Assembly (NCBI GenBank): GCA_045599105.1
Contig: JAZRVL010000014.1
Location: 10,807 to 74,806, forward strand
Direction: 5' to 3'
DNA from: Kiritimatiellia bacterium
GTDB taxonomy: Bacteria > Verrucomicrobiota > Kiritimatiellia > RFP12 > UBA1067
Length of the DNA: 64,000 bases
The notes under the pieces are model-generated. The model searched no databases and was not told the origin of the DNA. It worked only from the letters and a program-made list of their open reading frames with translations. The position numbers and the translations under genes were made by a program. Below are positions 358 through 9,345 of the stretch, piece after piece (within the stretch, counting starts at the first letter, position 1; each line of letters opens with the position of its first letter).

Positions 358-1629
358 TTGTCTTTATTGACGATTTTTCAGATTCTGATATTGGTAGTGC
401 TATTTGCATTATCCTTCTTTTTCTCAGGATCGGAAACCATTCTTTTTTCGCTTACTGCCGCTCAAAGACAGCGTATTGGCGAGCGCAATCCATCAGTCGG
501 CGCCCAGTTGACTGAGTGTTTGCGCGACTCTGCACTTCTTTTGTCCACCTTGTTAGTTGGTAATACTTTGGTTAACTTTGCAATCGCTACAATCGGCTAT
601 CAACTATTGGCGTCGACTTCGTCAAGTGGAGGATTGCTGGCAATCCCGATAATGACAATCGCATTACTTGTGTTTGGTGAGATTACGCCAAAGCAAATTG
701 CTTTACGCTATGCTGAAGAGTTGGCTCCGTTTTGCGCACGCTTGCTCCTGTTTTGGCGAGCGGTTTTGACACCATTTAACATTGTCCTCAAGTCGTTTTC
801 ACAGGTTTTCAGTAGTGGGCTCAAGCGTGAGCGTAGGGCGCTTTCAGATGCTGAACTTATGTCGGTATTGACCACTTACGTAGAGCATGGGGATTTTGCT
901 TCTGAAGATGCATCAATGATTGAGGGCATTTTGCGACTTTCGGAGCTTTGTGCTAATGACGAAATGACTCCGCGGGTAGATATGCAAGTTTATGACATCG
1001 ACTATCCGCTAAGTGTTAGGGAGACTTTACTTAAGAATTGTCGTCATCGCTATTTGCCAGTGATCAATCGAACAGCTGATGTGATAGTGGGAGTCTATGA
1101 CCAAAGAACAGGTCAGAGGGAAGATGCGCTTTTTGTACCAGAAACGGCAACCCTTGATGATTTATTAGTCACCTTTCATCGCAGTGGCAAGTCAATTGCG
1201 ATTGTGCTTGATGAATATGGAGGTACAGCAGGGCTTATTTCGGTTGATGATATTTTGGAACTTATTTTTGGGCCGCAAGTATTCACTCGTCCAGATGCAG
1301 AGCCGCTTATTGTCAAGAAAGGCGAGTTTGTTTGGGAAGTTGATGCTCGCGCCAATCTTGATGAAGTAAACCGCACGCTCGGGCTTAAACTCGAGGCGGG
1401 AGATGCAGATCGACTTTCAGGATGGGTCGCATTTCATGCCGAGCGAATTCCTCACGTCGGGCAAGAGCTTGAAGCAGATGGATGCCGCGTTACGATTTTA
1501 AGGCGTCGTAGGCGTCGAGTAACTTTGGTGCGCCTTGAGGTAGTTAAACGGCCAAAGGCAGAAACCGATTACGAAATCCTTGCAGAGACAGACGAGGCAG
1601 TTGAAAAAGTGGAAGCGGAAGCGAAATGA
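358..1629 (+). CDS. CNNM/CorC-HlyC family transporter-associated protein (DUF21 TM domain + CBS pair + CorC_HlyC C-terminal domain)
   Basis: 423 aa; hydrophobic N-terminal DUF21-like segment, central CBS-type region, C-terminal transporter-associated domain. Confidence 0.75.
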   Translation: MSLLTIFQILILVVLFALSFFFSGSETILFSLTAAQRQRIGERNPSVGAQLTECLRDSALLLSTLLVGNTLVNFAIATIGYQLLASTSSSGGLLAIPIMTIALLVFGEITPKQIALRYAEELAPFCARLLLFWRAVLTPFNIVLKSFSQVFSSGLKRERRALSDAELMSVLTTYVEHGDFASEDASMIEGILRLSELCANDEMTPRVDMQVYDIDYPLSVRETLLKNCRHRYLPVINRTADVIVGVYDQRTGQREDALFVPETATLDDLLVTFHRSGKSIAIVLDEYGGTAGLISVDDILELIFGPQVFTRPDAEPLIVKKGEFVWEVDARANLDEVNRTLGLKLEAGDADRLSGWVAFHAERIPHVGQELEADGCRVTILRRRRRRVTLVRLEVVKRPKAETDYEILAETDEAVEKVEAEAK

Positions 1630-2264
1630 CGATATTTCTTTTTATAGTTGCGTTTTTAGCATTGGCGAGTTCGGCATTTTGCTCTGGAGTGGAGATGGGA
1701 TTTTTGTCGGTACGTCGAGGACGAGTTTTGCATGTAGCTCGTGAGGGCGGAGTGCGAGCAAAGATCATTCTTAAGGCGATTTCGGATTTGGGGCGCACTA
1801 CAACGGCAATTCTTGTAGGGAATAATCTTGCGAATGTCACTTATTCTTCAAGTATGTCGGCGTTAGGGGCGTTGCTTTTTGCAGAATCGTCCATAATGAC
1901 TTGCATCTTTTCATTGGGCGCAGCAATTCTCTTATTATGTATGGGCGAGTTTTTGCCGAAGCTTTTGTTTTCAGCACGTCCGCTTAGACGGCTTTTGCGA
2001 TTGGCACCAATTTGGTCAATCTTTGCGAGAATATTTACCCCAGTTGGCTCAGTGGTTCAGCTACTTATCGAACGGATGACTCCGAGAAAACCTGAGCGGG
2101 CAAAAATGACGCCCGAAAAGGTGTTGAAAGTTTTGGAGGATAGAAAAGAGGGCGTCCACCTTTCGAAATTTGAACGTATTCTTGTTGAAAGATTGATGAT
2201 CCTTAGAATGAAGGGTGAGTTCATCACTCCTGAGTCATTAGTTTCGGCTCTCGACGAGCTATAA
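1626..2264 (+). CDS. DUF21 (CNNM-type transmembrane) domain-only membrane protein
   Basis: 212 aa hydrophobic protein paralogous to the N-terminal domain of the upstream gene; start overlaps the upstream stop (ATGA). Confidence 0.55.
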   Translation: MTIFLFIVAFLALASSAFCSGVEMGFLSVRRGRVLHVAREGGVRAKIILKAISDLGRTTTAILVGNNLANVTYSSSMSALGALLFAESSIMTCIFSLGAAILLLCMGEFLPKLLFSARPLRRLLRLAPIWSIFARIFTPVGSVVQLLIERMTPRKPERAKMTPEKVLKVLEDRKEGVHLSKFERILVERLMILRMKGEFITPESLVSALDEL

Positions 2265-5489: not shown

Positions 5490-7442
5490 ATGGTAAAAGA
5501 AGTCATAGAAGTCGCAAATCTCGTAAAAGAGGCGGGCGGACGCGCACTTTTGGTAGGCGGGTCGGTGCGCGATAGGCTTTTGGGGCTTGAGCCCAAAGAT
5601 TTTGATATTGAGTGCTTTGGCTTAAGTAGTGAAGGGTTGAAGCATGTTTTAGAAAAGCGTTTTACCCTTGATTTAGTTGGTGCGTCATTTGGGGTTATGA
5701 AACTGCATGGGGTAGATATCGATGTTGCCATCCCGCGCCGCGAAACTAAATTAGGCGAAGGTCATCGTGCCTTTGAAATAGCATACGATCCAACGATGAC
5801 CATCAAAGAAGCATCCGCAAGACGCGATTTTACTATTAATGCGATTTACTTTGACCCTTTAACGGAAGAGGTGATTGATCCTTGGGGTGGGAAAAAAGAT
5901 CTTGAGCTACGGATTTTGCGCCACGTTTCAGAGCGCTTTAAGGAAGATCCGCTAAGAGTCCTAAGAGGAATGCAGTTTGTTGCTCGCTTTGATCTTGAAG
6001 TGGCGCCTGAGACGATTGCAATTGCGCGAACGATGGCAATGGAAAATCTCGCAGTTGAGCGGGTAGTTGATGAATGGAATAAGCTTTTAATTAAAGGTGT
6101 AAAGATTTCTAAAGGACTTGAGTTTTTGCGCTCAACTGGTTGGATAGCATATTATCCAGAGTTGGAGAAGCTCATTGGCTGCGAGCAAGATCTTGAGTGG
6201 CATCCTGAAGGAGATGTTTGGGAGCATACGAAAGAGTGCTTGGATAAATTTGCATCCTCACGAGTAGGAGATAAAACCGAAGATTTCATCGTCGGACTTG
6301 CGGTTCTTTGCCATGATTTAGGGAAGCCTGCTTGCACGGCATTTGACCCTAAGAAAAAGCGTATTCGCTCGCTTGGACACGATGAAGCGGGCGTTGCACC
6401 TACTGAATCATTTTTGAGGCGACTTACCAACGAGTCGCAAATCTTAAAAGAGGTGCCGCCTTTGGTTAGATATCATATGCGACCATTTGCAATGTGGCGC
6501 GATAAATCTTCGGATGGGGCAATTAGGCGACTTTCCTCGCATGTGGGAAGAATTGATCGGTTAGTTAGAGTAGCTTTGGCTGATGGCAGCACGGAAGAGT
6601 CGTGTGCATGGCTGCTTAGTGCGGCAGAGCGCCTTAGAATTGCTGATGTGACGCCTAAGCCACTTGTGGGTGGGCGTGATTTGATTAAGCTTGGAATGAA
6701 GCCCTCGGTTAGGTTTGGCAAAATCCTTAAATTAGCGTACGAGGCGCAACTTGATGGGACGTTCTTGACGCGCGAAGAGGGAGTTAGATATTTAAATACA
6801 CTTCTTAAAAAACGTCCACGATATATTCTTTGGGATTGGAATGGAACGCTTTTGGACGATACCAAGGCAGCGCTTGATACTTTAAATGAGATGCTTAGAA
6901 AACGTGGCAATCCAGAAATCACTATGGAGTTTTATCGGGATCATTTTGCCTTTCCAGTAAAGCCATTTTATAGGTCAATTGGGGTTTGCTTGGAAAACGA
7001 AGACTGGGATAAGCTCGCAATTGAGTACCATAAAGTTTATGCGAAGCAGCAAAAAGCACTTAATCAAGACACTTTTGCGGCCTTGGAGAAAGTCCATGCG
7101 GCAGGAGTAAAGCAATCGATCATCTCTGCTCTCAGACAAGATCTTTTGGACGAAATCACCGAAGAGCTTGGAATAAAAAGGTATATGGAATGTGTTTATG
7201 GGGTTAATAATTTAAATGGGGAGAGCAAAATCGATCGTGCGCTTGAACTTTTGGATAAGATTGCGGACGCTGACCCAGTAATCATCGGCGACTCATTGCA
7301 CGATAAAGAGGTTGCAGATGCGATTGGTGTAAAGTGCGTTCTTTGCTCGCAGGGCAGTCACGCTCATCATCGGCTTGCGGTGGTCGCTCCAACTGGCAAA
7401 ACTCTCGTTGAGGCGGTAGAGATAGCCTTAGGAGAATTGTAA
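5490..7442 (+). CDS. cca: CCA-adding tRNA nucleotidyltransferase (PolyA_pol head + HD domain) fused to a C-terminal HAD-like hydrolase domain
   Basis: N-terminus LLVGGSVRDRLLGLEPKDFDIE; HD motif LCHDLGKP; C-terminal ~200 aa YILWDWNGTLLDD...IIGDSLHDKE resembles HAD-phosphatase motifs I-IV. Confidence 0.7.
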   Translation: MVKEVIEVANLVKEAGGRALLVGGSVRDRLLGLEPKDFDIECFGLSSEGLKHVLEKRFTLDLVGASFGVMKLHGVDIDVAIPRRETKLGEGHRAFEIAYDPTMTIKEASARRDFTINAIYFDPLTEEVIDPWGGKKDLELRILRHVSERFKEDPLRVLRGMQFVARFDLEVAPETIAIARTMAMENLAVERVVDEWNKLLIKGVKISKGLEFLRSTGWIAYYPELEKLIGCEQDLEWHPEGDVWEHTKECLDKFASSRVGDKTEDFIVGLAVLCHDLGKPACTAFDPKKKRIRSLGHDEAGVAPTESFLRRLTNESQILKEVPPLVRYHMRPFAMWRDKSSDGAIRRLSSHVGRIDRLVRVALADGSTEESCAWLLSAAERLRIADVTPKPLVGGRDLIKLGMKPSVRFGKILKLAYEAQLDGTFLTREEGVRYLNTLLKKRPRYILWDWNGTLLDDTKAALDTLNEMLRKRGNPEITMEFYRDHFAFPVKPFYRSIGVCLENEDWDKLAIEYHKVYAKQQKALNQDTFAALEKVHAAGVKQSIISALRQDLLDEITEELGIKRYMECVYGVNNLNGESKIDRALELLDKIADADPVIIGDSLHDKEVADAIGVKCVLCSQGSHAHHRLAVVAPTGKTLVEAVEIALGEL

Positions 7443-7461
7443 ACCAAGGTGGATAGATTTA

Positions 7462-7470
7462 TGCTATAAT
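7462..7470 (+). promoter_or_regulatory. Extended -10 (TGCTATAAT) promoter of the NifU-like/GGGtGRT operon
   Basis: TGnTATAAT 42 nt upstream of the 7512 start; AAGGA RBS-like at ~7497. Confidence 0.45.
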
Positions 7471-7511
7471 ATACGAACAATTTTGGTACACCAAATTAAG
7501 GAAACTAAGCA

Positions 7512-8204
7512 ATGGTATATTCTACTGAGGTTCAACATCAGTGCCCACTTATGAAGGGGTGCAATCATGGTCCTGCTCCAATTCCTGAAGAAGGGAAATG
7601 GGTTCAGGCACGCGAAATCAAGGACATTTCTGGTTATACGCACGGCGTGGGCTGGTGCGCGCCCCAGCAAGGTGCTTGCAAGCTATCATTGAATATCAAG
7701 AATGGTATCATTGAGGAAGCGCTCGTAGAGACGATTGGTTGCTCGGGAATGACGCACTCCGCAGCAATGGCTTCGGAAATCCTCGTGGGCAAGACGCTTT
7801 TGGAGGCGCTCAACACCGATTTGGTGTGCGATGCTATTAATACCGCAATGCGCGAACTCTTTTTGCAAATCGTTTATGGTCGCACGCAAAGTGCATTCTC
7901 GGATGGCGGATTGGTGATTGGCGCAGGATTGGAAGATTTGGGCAAAGGCCTTCGTTCAATGGTCGGTACGATGTATGCGACCAAGGCAAAAGGTCCACGC
8001 TATTTGGAAATGACCGAGGGCTATTGCACGCGTATGGCGCTGAATAAGCAGGGCGAAGTGATTGGTTATGAGTTCGTTTCGCTCGGTAAGATGACTGACT
8101 TCATCAAGAAGGGGCTCTCGCCTAATGAAGCATGGGAAAAGGCCAAAGGTCATTATGGTCAGTTTGAGGGTGCATCTAAGTATATTGATCCGCGCAAGGA
8201 ATAA
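7512..8204 (+). CDS. Cys-rich protein with an embedded IscU/NifU-like Fe-S scaffold domain
   Basis: Segment CKLSLNIKNGIIEEALVETIGCSGMTHSAAMASEILVGKTLLEAL aligns by eye with IscU [42 protein letters not shown]; extra CPLMKGC and GWCAP..GAC cysteine motifs. Confidence 0.55.
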   Translation: MVYSTEVQHQCPLMKGCNHGPAPIPEEGKWVQAREIKDISGYTHGVGWCAPQQGACKLSLNIKNGIIEEALVETIGCSGMTHSAAMASEILVGKTLLEALNTDLVCDAINTAMRELFLQIVYGRTQSAFSDGGLVIGAGLEDLGKGLRSMVGTMYATKAKGPRYLEMTEGYCTRMALNKQGEVIGYEFVSLGKMTDFIKKGLSPNEAWEKAKGHYGQFEGASKYIDPRKE

Positions 8205-8222
8205 GGAAAGGAGTTTATAATC

Positions 8223-9260
8223 ATGGCTACGAAGAAAAAAACTACTAAGAAGTCGGGCGAGAAGCTGTTTGAGGGTTATGAGCGTCGTGAGGCGAAGATC
8301 CTTGCAGCACTAAAGCCATACGGCATTAAGTCGATTGAAGAGTGTGCAACTATTTGCAAGAAGGCAGGCTTTGATCCTTACAAGATTGTTGAGGAAACTC
8401 AGCCAATTTGCTTTGAGAATGCAAAGTGGGCGTACACGGTGGGTGCAGCAATGGCAATCAAGAAGGGATGCAAAAAGGCAAAGGATGCCGCTGCTGAAAT
8501 CGGTGTTGGATTGCAGGCGTTTTGCATTCCAGGCTCGGTTGCAGAAAATCGTCAGGTCGGGCGTGGACATGGTAACCTCGGCGCGATGCTTTTGGACGAT
8601 GAGACGAAGTGCTTTGCGTTTCTCGCAGGTCACGAGTCGTTTGCGGCTGCTGAAGGTGCAATCAAAATTGCGCTTAATGCGAACAAGGTGCGCAAGACCA
8701 ATCTCAAGGTTATTTTGAATGGTTTGGGCAAGGATGCAGCGTACATTATAAGCCGCATCAATGGCTTTACTTATGTGAAGACCAACTTTAATAACAATAC
8801 CGAAAAGCTCAAAGTGGTTGCTCGTAAACCGTTCTCTAAAGGTCCTCGCGCGGCAGTTAACTGCTATGGTGCGGACAATGTTCCTGAGGGCGTAGCAATT
8901 ATGAAGTATGAGAACGTCGGCGTTTCCATTACAGGTAACTCGACGAATCCTACGCGTTTCCAGCATCCAGTCGCTGGCACTTACAAGAAGTGGTGCTGGG
9001 AAAACGGGCGGAAGTATTTCTCGGTCGCTTCGGGCGGTGGTACTGGTCGTACACTTCATCCTGACAATATGGCAGCAGGTCCTTCAAGCTACGGCATGAC
9101 GGACACGATGGGTAGAATGCATTCGGACGCGCAGTTCGCAGGAAGCTCTTCTGTGCCTGCACACGTCGAAATGATGGGACTCATCGGTATGGGCAACAAT
9201 CCTATGGTTGGTGCTACTGTTGCAGTTGCGGTTGCAGTCGAGGAAAGTTTTAAGAAGTAA
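8223..9260 (+). CDS. GGGtGRT-motif family protein (uncharacterised conserved family)
   Basis: 345 aa with the eponymous SGGGTGRTLHP motif; strong RBS GGAAAGGAG 8 nt upstream; 18 nt downstream of the NifU-like gene (co-operonic). Confidence 0.65.
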   Translation: MATKKKTTKKSGEKLFEGYERREAKILAALKPYGIKSIEECATICKKAGFDPYKIVEETQPICFENAKWAYTVGAAMAIKKGCKKAKDAAAEIGVGLQAFCIPGSVAENRQVGRGHGNLGAMLLDDETKCFAFLAGHESFAAAEGAIKIALNANKVRKTNLKVILNGLGKDAAYIISRINGFTYVKTNFNNNTEKLKVVARKPFSKGPRAAVNCYGADNVPEGVAIMKYENVGVSITGNSTNPTRFQHPVAGTYKKWCWENGRKYFSVASGGGTGRTLHPDNMAAGPSSYGMTDTMGRMHSDAQFAGSSSVPAHVEMMGLIGMGNNPMVGATVAVAVAVEESFKK

Positions 9261-9268
9261 TAATCAAA

Positions 9269-9345
9269 GGACCCTTAGCTCAGTCGGTCAGAGCGGGAGA
9301 CTCATAATCTCTTGGTCGTGGGTTCAAGTCCCGCAGGGTCCACCA
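9269..9345 (+). tRNA. tRNA-Met (anticodon CAT; elongator-type; could alternatively be the lysidine tRNA-Ile2), CCA encoded
   Basis: Cloverleaf: acceptor GGACCCT/AGGGTCC, D-arm GCTC..GAGC, anticodon stem GGAGA/TCTCT with loop CTCATAA, T-loop TTCAAGT, 3' CCA. Confidence 0.8.

What the first reader, a model, noticed from the sequence alone, without database searches (positions are those of the whole stretch)
7443..9260. Uncharacterised two-gene module: Cys-rich IscU/NifU-like protein + GGGtGRT-motif protein
Gene 1 (7512-8204) carries a segment that aligns convincingly by eye with the IscU Fe-S scaffold core (..CKLSLNIKNGIIEEALVETIGCSGMTHSAAMASEILVGKTLLEAL..). It has extra cysteine clusters (HQCPLMKGCNHG, GWCAPQQGAC) and a ~100 aa C-terminal extension not found in IscU. 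Gene 2 (8223-9260) carries the SGGGTGRT motif that names the functionally unassigned GGGtGRT protein family. The two genes are 18 nt apart. The second has a strong RBS, and they share an upstream TGCTATAAT promoter, so they form a dedicated operon. To my knowledge, no biochemical function has been assigned to the GGGtGRT family. A scaffold-like partner points to metal- or cluster-dependent chemistry, for example cofactor maturation or a radical/redox step. Placement next to a tRNA and an efflux operon rather than isc/suf genes argues against ordinary Fe-S housekeeping.
Basis: partly seen in the sequence, partly recalled or inferred. Interest (0 to 1): 0.75.

Follow-up and report, generated by a model that had tools for sequence, protein, structure and literature searches.

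The report
Conserved NifU-like/GGGtGRT gene pair, function unknown
This is one copy of a two-gene unit (an IscU-fold four-cysteine protein plus a "GGGtGRT" protein) that strict anaerobes from rumen bacteria to methanogens keep side by side and almost unchanged, express strongly when iron is plentiful, and whose function nobody has yet assigned.

Summary
Gene 1 (7512-8204) and gene 2 (8223-9260) exist as described, 18 nt apart. They have good ribosome-binding sites and a TGnTATAAT -10 element that is conserved in relatives.

- **Gene 2** is a full-length PF14057 GGGtGRT protein.
- **Gene 1** falls just below the Pfam NifU_N threshold, but its model matches the IscU fold. It carries four invariant cysteines and a C-terminal extension of about 105 aa.
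- **Pairing** is absolute. All 157 sampled loci with enough upstream sequence hold gene 1 directly upstream of gene 2. So do an archaeal locus, two further main-clade loci and five divergent-clade loci.
- **Conservation** is extreme. Synonymous sites are saturated while proteins stay 73-96% identical.
- **Function** is unassigned in the searchable literature through 2026. The Bacteroides orthologues (BT0173-74) fall 11-13-fold on iron depletion, and insertions in them give a mild glycolysis-linked phenotype.
- **New lead:** a divergent clade always sits in an operon with phosphoglycerate-mutase-type genes.

Best reading is an obligate two-subunit iron-dependent enzyme, not a housekeeping Fe-S scaffold, possibly acting near phosphoglycerate. 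The instance is an ordinary member of a known but uncharacterised family. The family is the interesting part.

The parts
7462..7470 (+). Extended -10 promoter element TGCTATAAT, about 42 nt upstream of the gene 1 ATG
   Evidence: Read. A TGnTATAAT/TATAAT box sits at the same distance from the ATG in L001, L005, L008, L014 and L031, while the rest of the spacer varies. The consensus scan found no -35 hexamer. Function is inferred, not shown.
7498..7503 (+). Ribosome-binding site AAGGAA of gene 1, 8 nt before the ATG
   Evidence: Read. A GGAG-type motif is at the same place in relatives.
7512..8204 (+). Gene 1: 230-aa IscU-fold protein with four invariant cysteines
   Evidence: ORF. At least 8000 homologues, the best 120 at 69-95% identity, named 'iron-sulfur cluster assembly scaffold protein' by NCBI.
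7629..7877 (+). IscU/NifU-like core domain of gene 1 (about residues 40-122). Invariant C49 (7656-7658), C56 (7677-7679), C77 (7740-7742), C106 (7827-7829) and H44.
7878..8201 (+). C-terminal extension of gene 1 (about residues 123-230), absent from IscU. It holds an invariant-rich segment YGRTQSAFS...GLEDLGKGLRS and a beta-rich domain.
   Evidence: Alignments, conservation. In the AF2 model residues 122-170 have pLDDT below 50 and residues 170-230 have 68-83. No family was assigned.
8208..8213 (+). Ribosome-binding site AAGGAG of gene 2, 9 nt before the ATG, inside the 18-nt spacer
   Evidence: Read.
8223..9260 (+). Gene 2: 345-aa GGGtGRT protein (PF14057), with a lineage-specific Lys-rich N-terminal tail (residues 1-14)
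   Evidence: PF14057 E 1.8e-189, profile positions 1-326 of 327. At least 8000 homologues. AF2 model pLDDT 70, pTM 0.74, an N-terminal helical part followed by a Rossmann-like alpha/beta domain.
8928..9212 (+). Near-invariant C-terminal block of gene 2 (residues 236-330). Motifs: TGNST, ASGGGTGRT-HPD (GGGTGRT at 9033-9053), SYGMTD-GR-H, QFAGSSSVP-H, G-GNNP-VG.
   Evidence: Invariant even across the 45-55% identity clade. AF2 places residues 269-322 with pLDDT below 50.

Best explanation
The two genes encode the two subunits of one cytoplasmic, iron-dependent enzyme of strict anaerobes. They are made from a single bicistronic transcript with its own promoter.

The small subunit has the IscU fold. 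I infer that it holds a permanently bound metal centre, most likely an Fe-S cluster, on four invariant cysteines (C49, C56, C77, C106). This centre would serve as an electron-transfer or catalytic cofactor, not as a transient assembly site.

The large GGGtGRT subunit is a Rossmann-like alpha/beta protein. Its invariant Gly/Ser/Thr/His/Asp-rich loops (AGHES, GLGK, TGNST, SGGGTGRT-HPD, GSSSVP-H) sit after beta-strands, where such folds bind phosphate-bearing ligands. I infer that it binds a small phosphorylated substrate or cofactor.

The segments that are most conserved and that the structure predictor cannot place in either monomer probably form the interface and active site.

The only genomic clue to the substrate points to the phosphoglycerate node of lower glycolysis. 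Candidate reactions are a redox or dehydration step that makes or uses 3- or 2-phosphoglycerate.

Shown: the pairing, the conservation, the IscU fold, the invariant residues, the iron regulation of the orthologues, and the linkage of the divergent clade to phosphoglycerate mutases.

Inferred: the complex itself, the Fe-S cluster, phosphate binding, and the substrate.

Confidence is about 0.4 for 'obligate two-subunit iron-dependent enzyme' and about 0.15 for the phosphoglycerate-node substrate.
For: Pairing:
- 80 of 80 genome loci (Kiritimatiellae, Lentisphaerae, Clostridia, Bacteroidales) have gene 1 directly upstream on the same strand.
- 77 of 77 metagenome loci with enough upstream sequence do too.
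- The same holds in a Methanobacteriaceae locus, in L089 and L090 and in five divergent-clade loci.
- No third gene is conserved next to the main-clade pair. No other family recurs in more than 6 of the 80 metagenome loci. The recurring neighbours among the genome loci come from closely related Clostridia.

Co-evolution: partner identities track each other, roughly 95/94%, 85/85%, 73/73% and 50/50%.

Constraint:
- Synonymous sites are saturated (third-position identity 0.30-0.49) while amino-acid identity is 73-96%.
- At 50% identity the whole family reduces to two full-length representatives among the 150 listed (P0243, P0273). The other 148 are shorter or longer than a normal member or match only part of the query. 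The ten of these I read were assembly duplications, chimeras or frameshifted sequences.

Cofactor:
- C49, C56, C77, C106 and H44 are invariant in 135 of 135 sequences.
- The core is IscU-like.
- There is a fourth cysteine, no Asp at the IscU D39 position, and no LPPVK motif.

Iron and abundance:
- BT0173-74 fall 11- to 12.8-fold on iron depletion (PMC10434189).
- The C. pasteurianum protein is listed among spots that change with iron availability (PMC5395762).
- This is the opposite of the induction under iron limitation that established knowledge expects of SUF-type Fe-S assembly genes.

Substrate lead:
- All 5 distinct divergent-clade loci carry an ApgM that passes the NCBIfam equivalog cutoff (517 against 489 bits) and a His_Phos_1 protein.
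- One rearranged locus adds a GpmI-type phosphoglycerate mutase.
- Start and stop codons overlap in these operons.
- Transposon insertions in BT0173-4 came out of the same screen as pfkA insertions.

Fold: the conserved loops follow predicted beta-strands of an alpha/beta domain.
Against: - No experiment shows that the two proteins interact or bind metal.
- The AF2 models are mediocre (pLDDT 70 and 57) because the alignments lack diversity.
- The phosphoglycerate-mutase link is seen only in the rare divergent clade. It occurs in 0 of 160 main-clade loci.
- The B. thetaiotaomicron insertion mutants grow normally on glucose, and the Roc effect is only 2-fold.
- Four cysteines could equally bind zinc, as in SufU.
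Confidence: 0.4

Rival explanations
1. A dedicated Fe-S cluster assembly or delivery system. Gene 1 is a true IscU-type scaffold that builds clusters, perhaps directly from sulfide in anaerobes. GGGtGRT is its accessory partner, acting as sulfur or iron donor, as chaperone, or as the specific client.
For: IscU fold and the homologous GC(S)G cysteine. NCBI names the protein a scaffold. Cysteines lie near all three IscU ligand positions.
Against: - It fails every curated IscU/NifU/SufU threshold.
- It has a fourth invariant cysteine and no Asp39 equivalent, features expected to stabilise rather than release a cluster (inference from IscU D39A behaviour, established knowledge).
- No cysteine desulfurase or chaperone gene is conserved nearby.
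- Expression falls about 12-fold on iron depletion.
- Abundance is very high.
- It is dispensable in glucose medium.
Confidence: 0.2
2. A non-catalytic iron or Fe-S buffer or stress-protection protein pair. It stores or shields iron or clusters when iron is plentiful, or helps detoxify oxygen or NO.
For: Induced by iron and abundant. Restricted to anaerobes. A rubredoxin gene lies next to the pair in a methanogen. A Fur gene lies next to the divergent operon.
Against: - GGGtGRT has only two near-invariant cysteines (C45, C225) and no ferritin-like features.
- Its invariant loop pattern after beta-strands looks like an active site.
- The 1:1 gene pairing and extreme residue-level constraint are unusual for a storage protein.
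Confidence: 0.12
3. A sulfur-transfer (thiolation) enzyme. Gene 1 acts like SufU as a persulfide or cluster carrier. GGGtGRT is a nucleotide-binding alpha/beta protein that activates a substrate for sulfur insertion.
For: Weak SufU similarity. The S-GGG-T-G loop recalls the PP-loop SGGxDS (recalled from memory, not tested). Universal stress protein folds are among the weak structural hits. In the rumen metaproteome it falls in the same abundance group (HIGH0) as cysteine synthase and O-acetylhomoserine thiol-lyase.
Against: - The motif lies at the C-terminal end of the alpha/beta domain, not after the first strand as in PP-loop enzymes.
- Structural scores are at generic level.
- The abundance is far above that typical of modification enzymes.
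Confidence: 0.1
4. A regulatory or sensor complex that couples iron or redox status to central carbon signalling, rather than an enzyme.
For: BT0173-4 insertions derepress the Cur-controlled Roc protein in glucose. A Fur gene lies beside one divergent operon.
Against: - The effect is modest (2-fold).
- Very high abundance and the absence of DNA-binding or signalling domains argue against a regulator.
Confidence: 0.08

Closest known systems
BT0173 (GGGtGRT protein) and BT0174 ('NifU') of Bacteroides thetaiotaomicron
   Same: The same two annotated families are adjacent there, and a Bacteroides uniformis pair (L035) is 80-85% identical to the window proteins. The B. thetaiotaomicron pair is iron-responsive and has a mild phenotype related to glucose signalling.
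   Different: The host phylum differs: the window comes from a rumen or gut Kiritimatiellae-type bacterium (L001-L005 at 93-96% identity). Gene 2 here has a Lys-rich N-terminal tail. No function is known for the Bacteroides pair either.
IscU / NifU N-terminal domain Fe-S scaffold (PF01592, TIGR01999)
   Different: - Below all curated thresholds.
- The first ligand cysteine is replaced by two flanking cysteines (C49, C56).
- No Asp39 and no LPPVK motif.
- An extra conserved region of about 105 aa.
- No desulfurase neighbour.
- Always paired with GGGtGRT.
SufU (zinc-dependent sulfurtransferase, TIGR01994)
   Same: An IscU-fold protein with a stably bound metal on cysteines. It works as a partner subunit rather than a scaffold.
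   Different: Only 18.2 bits against a cutoff of 92.5. No sufS or sufBCD context.
Generic Rossmann-like alpha/beta enzymes (aldehyde dehydrogenases including GAPN 1ky8, SIS domains, universal stress proteins, methylglyoxal synthase)
   Different: No sequence relationship. The scores are typical of any doubly wound fold. The invariant C-terminal block has no counterpart.

Membership tests
PF14057 GGGtGRT (gene 2) | Pfam HMM score above the gathering threshold, over the full profile length | tested here: met
   629.1 bits against 27, profile positions 1-326 of 327
PF14057 GGGtGRT (gene 2) | The GGGTGRT sequence motif | tested here: met
   Residues 271-277, nt 9033-9053. Invariant in 36 diverse members.
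NifU-like/GGGtGRT gene pair (as in BT0173-74) | IscU-fold gene immediately upstream of the GGGtGRT gene on the same strand | tested here: met
   18-nt spacer in the window. 80 of 80 and 77 of 77 loci elsewhere.
IscU/NifU_N scaffold (gene 1) | Curated profile thresholds (Pfam PF01592; NCBIfam IscU, NifU_clost, NifU_proper) | tested here: not met
   21.1 against 22 bits; 20.5 against 192.4; 27.3 against 187.9; 14.8 against 273.3
IscU/NifU_N scaffold (gene 1) | IscU alpha+beta fold | tested here: met
IscU/NifU_N scaffold (gene 1) | Three cluster-ligand cysteines at the canonical positions (E. coli C37, C63, C106) | tested here: inconclusive
   C77 aligns with C63. C37 aligns with Q53, with C49 and C56 on either side. 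C106 of gene 1 lies outside the confident alignment.
IscU/NifU_N scaffold (gene 1) | Asp next to the first cysteine (D39) and the LPPVK chaperone-binding motif | tested here: not met
   No Asp in GWCAPQQGACK and no LPPVK-like sequence. The alignment in this stretch is uncertain.
IscU/NifU_N scaffold (gene 1) | Genomic association with a cysteine desulfurase or other isc/suf/nif genes | tested here: not met
   The neighbours within about 7 kb upstream and 4.7 kb downstream in the window are transporters, HisRS, YmdB, a CCA-enzyme/HAD fusion and an efflux pump. No third gene family is conserved across 160 loci.
SufU (gene 1) | NCBIfam TIGR01994 threshold | tested here: not met
   18.2 against 92.5 bits
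Dak1/DhaK (GGGSGHEP loop), considered for gene 2 | Profile similarity beyond the short glycine loop | tested here: not met
   hhalign of A4 against E. coli DhaK aligns the two loops, but with probability 1.6%
Known anti-phage defence systems (PADLOC) | Match to any PADLOC model | tested here: not met
   No hits for either window protein or for six proteins of the divergent operon

The most novel reading that the evidence does not exclude
The NifU-like/GGGtGRT pair is an unrecognised, abundant Fe-S enzyme of central carbon metabolism shared by gut and rumen anaerobes and methanogens. It would catalyse an iron-dependent step at the phosphoglycerate node, for example a ferredoxin-linked oxidation or dehydration that makes or consumes 3- or 2-phosphoglycerate. 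Cells would switch it off when iron is scarce.
Probability: 0.15. Interest if true: 0.85.

Novelty: new member of a known kind. Interest (0 to 1): 0.55.

Why it matters
GGGtGRT is a conserved protein of unknown function. It is found in Bacteroidales, Clostridia, Kiritimatiellae, Lentisphaerae and Methanobacteriaceae. Metaproteome papers also report it in Negativicutes and Succinatimonas. It is highly expressed in animal guts and evolves very slowly, yet it has no solved homologue and no assigned function.

Three results turn it from a name into a testable problem:
- It never occurs without its IscU-fold partner.
- That partner has a fixed four-cysteine site.
- A divergent clade is wired to phosphoglycerate mutases.

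If it proves to be an iron-dependent step of anaerobe core metabolism, it would change metabolic models of gut and rumen microbes. It would also explain part of their response to iron limitation in the host.

Tried and rejected
- **Gene fusions.** Long database entries that looked like fusions or Rosetta-stone proteins (P0001, P0121-P0123, P0130, P0241, P0253, P0266, P0326) are assembly duplications or chimeras.
- **DhaK relationship.** Tested through the SGGG[ST]G loop. hhalign probability is 1.6%, so rejected.
- **Weak Pfam relationships.** Scanning 36 diverse members at E up to 10 found none recurring.
- **Defence-island reading of the divergent operon.** No PADLOC hit.
- **Riboswitch or leader RNA.** Rfam finds only the tRNA.
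- **tRNA-Met as part of the unit.** Not conserved in relatives.
- **Recent horizontal transfer as the cause of the high identity.** Rejected, because synonymous sites are saturated.
- **Metagenome scan for more divergent-clade operons.** It returned only main-clade loci, because the search pattern used was AGHESFAA, which both clades share. I reused those loci as a second synteny sample.
- **afdb50 fold library.** Not available.
- **Heterocomplex model.** Could not be run.
Full report
**1. What is in the sequence**

They are separated by 18 nt that contain AAGGAG 9 nt before the second ATG. Gene 1 has AAGGAA 8 nt before its ATG. A TGCTATAAT extended -10 box lies at 7462-7470.

The consensus scan found no -35 hexamer and no terminator between or after the genes. 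In Kiritimatiellae relatives, however, a TGnTATAAT/TATAAT box sits at the same distance from the ATG while the rest of the spacer differs. This phylogenetic footprint supports a promoter of the pair's own.

A tRNA-Met(CAT) starts 8 nt after the gene 2 stop. A tRNA directly downstream of gene 2 was seen in only one of 14 related loci checked (a tRNA-Val in L014). Rfam finds no leader RNA.

The neighbours are CNNM/CorC transporters, HisRS, a Sel1-repeat protein, YmdB, a PolyA_pol-head/HAD fusion and a TolC-HlyD-MacB efflux set. None is related to Fe-S assembly. The closest relatives are rumen and gut Kiritimatiellae MAGs (93-96% protein identity), so the window most likely comes from such an organism.

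**2. Family assignment**

Gene 2 is a full-length PF14057 GGGtGRT protein (E 1.8e-189). NCBIfam has no model for it.

Gene 1 scores 21.1 bits on NifU_N against a threshold of 22. It scores far below the NCBIfam IscU, NifU and SufU cutoffs. Its core is nevertheless homologous to IscU:
- hhalign gives 86% probability for residues 56-104 against E. coli IscU 41-93, and places C77 on IscU C63.

Gene 1 differs from IscU in several ways:
- The first ligand cysteine is not in register. Two invariant cysteines, C49 and C56, flank that position.
- There is no Asp39 equivalent and no LPPVK motif.
- About 105 extra, strongly conserved residues follow the core.

Over 135 unique sequences, C49, C56, C77, C106 and H44 are 100% conserved and H82 is 98% conserved. 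C11 is 92% conserved and C17 only 27%.

**3. The pair is obligate and extremely constrained**

Both proteins have at least 8000 database relatives. The best 120 for each are 69-95% identical and come from Clostridia, Kiritimatiellia, Sphaerochaetaceae and others.

Synteny was complete in every sample:
- With gene 2 as anchor, all 80 genome loci have the gene 1 homologue directly upstream on the same strand.
- In a second, independent and more diverse sample, all 77 metagenome loci with room upstream do too.
- So do a Methanobacteriaceae locus and two further main-clade loci.
- No other gene family recurs next to the main-clade pair. None is found in more than 6 of the 80 metagenome loci. The recurring neighbours among the genome loci come from closely related Clostridia.

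A search of 1.84 billion cluster representatives at 50% identity returned 1903 hits. Among the 150 listed, only two are full-length genuine members (P0243 at 75% and P0273 at 50%). The other 148 are shorter or longer than a normal member or match only part of the query. The ten of these I read were assembly duplications, chimeras or frameshifted sequences.

The conservation is not recent transfer. Against Kiritimatiellae, Clostridia, Bacteroides and Methanobacteriaceae copies, third-codon-position identity is only 0.30-0.49 and dS is saturated. Amino-acid identity is 73-96% and dN is 0.04-0.25.

Partner identities track each other in these comparisons, at roughly 95/94, 85/85, 73/73 and 50/50%. 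The correlation across the metagenome sample is r = 0.60.

**4. Structure**

The GGGtGRT model (pLDDT 70, pTM 0.74) has an N-terminal helical part and a Rossmann-like alpha/beta domain. The family-wide invariant motifs follow the predicted strands. They are GHG, AGHESFAAAEGA, GLGK, EGV, TGNST, ASGGGTGRT-HPD, SYGMTD-GR-H, QFAGSSSVP-H and G-GNNP-VG. Only two cysteines (C45, C225) are near-invariant, so this subunit has no four-cysteine site of its own.

The most invariant stretch of gene 2 (residues 269-322) and an invariant-rich stretch of gene 1 (residues 122-170) are the parts AF2 cannot place. This is what one would expect of an interface or cofactor site that only forms in the complex. That is an inference.

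**5. What is known**

The searchable literature never assigns a function.
- Transposon insertions in BT0173-4 raise Roc 2-fold in glucose. They came from the same screen that recovered pfkA, and growth on glucose was normal (bioRxiv 10.64898/2026.04.10.717545).
- The C. pasteurianum protein is listed among proteins whose abundance changes with iron availability (PMC5395762).
- It is 'poorly characterised' but highly expressed in vivo in Bacteroides, Blautia, Megamonas, Megasphaera and Succinatimonas, alongside NifU (PMC11204068).
- It appears with NifU in rumen metaproteomes (PMC7035244).
- A 2025 paper states that its function 'remain[s] unclear' (PMC12078515).

**6. A new lead: the divergent clade**

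A small clade, 45-55% identical to the window protein, was sampled at five distinct loci: L081, L085, L087, L091 and L092. Their GGGtGRT proteins are 51-72% identical to one another, and GC content ranges from 36 to 50%. Every locus has the same partners:
- an archaeal-type cofactor-independent phosphoglycerate mutase (ApgM; NCBIfam PRK04024, 517 bits against a cutoff of 489; 72-88% conserved among loci)
- the NifU-like gene, with the four cysteines retained
- GGGtGRT
- a protein of 315-332 aa with hydrophobic, probably membrane-spanning N-terminal segments and no Pfam match
- a His_Phos_1 protein of the dPGM/phosphatase superfamily (E 4.5e-42)

Starts and stops overlap. In L091 the order is rearranged and a GpmI-type phosphoglycerate mutase (PF06415) is added. 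The association therefore survived rearrangement. In L087 a Fur gene lies convergent downstream. None of these partners occurs within 6-8 kb of the pair in 160 main-clade loci. No PADLOC model matches.

**7. Interpretation**

The best-supported reading is an obligate two-subunit, iron-dependent enzyme. An IscU-fold subunit would carry a fixed four-cysteine metal or Fe-S centre. A Rossmann-like subunit would bind a phosphorylated ligand through its invariant glycine-rich and His/Asp loops.

Arguments against a housekeeping scaffold:
- failure of the curated thresholds
- the fourth cysteine and the missing Asp
- the extra domain
- no desulfurase neighbour
- repression, not induction, on iron depletion
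- very high abundance
- dispensability on glucose

The phosphoglycerate-mutase operons and the company of pfkA in the Bacteroides screen point, weakly, to the phosphoglycerate node. I put the general explanation at about 0.4 and the specific substrate at about 0.15.

The rivals are a specialised scaffold or delivery system (0.2), an iron or cluster buffer or stress protein (0.12), a SufU-like sulfur-transfer enzyme (0.1) and a regulatory complex (0.08).

**8. Novelty and score**

The window copy is an ordinary member of a known pair of families. NCBI already names both proteins, and the adjacency is in print for B. thetaiotaomicron. The family itself is a prominent unknown. The results added here make it experimentally approachable:
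- absolute pairing across two domains of life
- saturation-level purifying selection
- the invariant four-cysteine site with non-IscU geometry
- the operon link to phosphoglycerate mutases

I rate interest at 0.55.

Noticed in passing
L081:3997-8606, L085:2572-8580, L087:4006-8548, L092:301-5405, L091:391-6859: A divergent GGGtGRT clade always sits in an operon made of ApgM, a NifU-like gene, GGGtGRT, a 315-332-aa protein with hydrophobic N-terminal segments and no Pfam match, and a His_Phos_1 protein. L091 has a rearranged order and carries an extra GpmI-type phosphoglycerate mutase, giving three different mutase-type genes in one locus. A Fur gene lies convergent downstream in L087.
   Followed up: partly
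window 5490-7442 (+): A 650-aa ORF fuses a PolyA_pol/CCA-adding-enzyme head domain (residues 20-144) to a C-terminal HAD-family hydrolase domain (residues 446-618). This is an unusual combination, directly upstream of the pair.
   Followed up: no
window 9269-9345 (+): tRNA-Met(CAT) starts 8 nt after the gene 2 stop codon, with no terminator-like site between them. It may be co-transcribed with the pair. The arrangement is not conserved in relatives.
   Followed up: partly
window 8223-8264 (gene 2 residues 1-14): A Lys-rich N-terminal tail (MATKKKTTKKSGEK) precedes the Pfam domain. Close relatives share it over the full length (L001-L005). A Kiritimatiellia homologue (P0137) has a longer Ala/Lys/Pro-rich tail. 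Clostridial and archaeal members lack it.
   Followed up: no
window 8310-9059 (-), and antisense ORFs in L002 and L094-L173: Long antisense and alternative-frame 'shadow' ORFs overlap both genes and form conserved clusters across loci. They are by-products of the extreme conservation of the sense genes, not genes themselves.
   Followed up: yes
database proteins P0001, P0121-P0123, P0130, P0241, P0253, P0266, P0326, P0374: Many public entries for both families are assembly artefacts: internal tandem duplications, chimeras with unrelated N-termini, or frameshifts. They inflate the apparent number of 50%-identity clusters and mimic fusions.
   Followed up: yes
L007 (bin labelled Alistipes onderdonkii): A contig in a bin labelled as a Bacteroidales species carries the pair at 95-96% identity to the Kiritimatiellae-type window. 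The Bacteroides uniformis copy (L035) is 80-85% identical. This suggests mis-binning of that contig.
   Followed up: no
window 358-1629 and 1626-2264 (+): Two consecutive, overlapping CNNM-domain ORFs. The second (212 aa) has only the transmembrane domain, without the CBS/CorC_HlyC parts. It could be a split or truncated duplicate.
   Followed up: no
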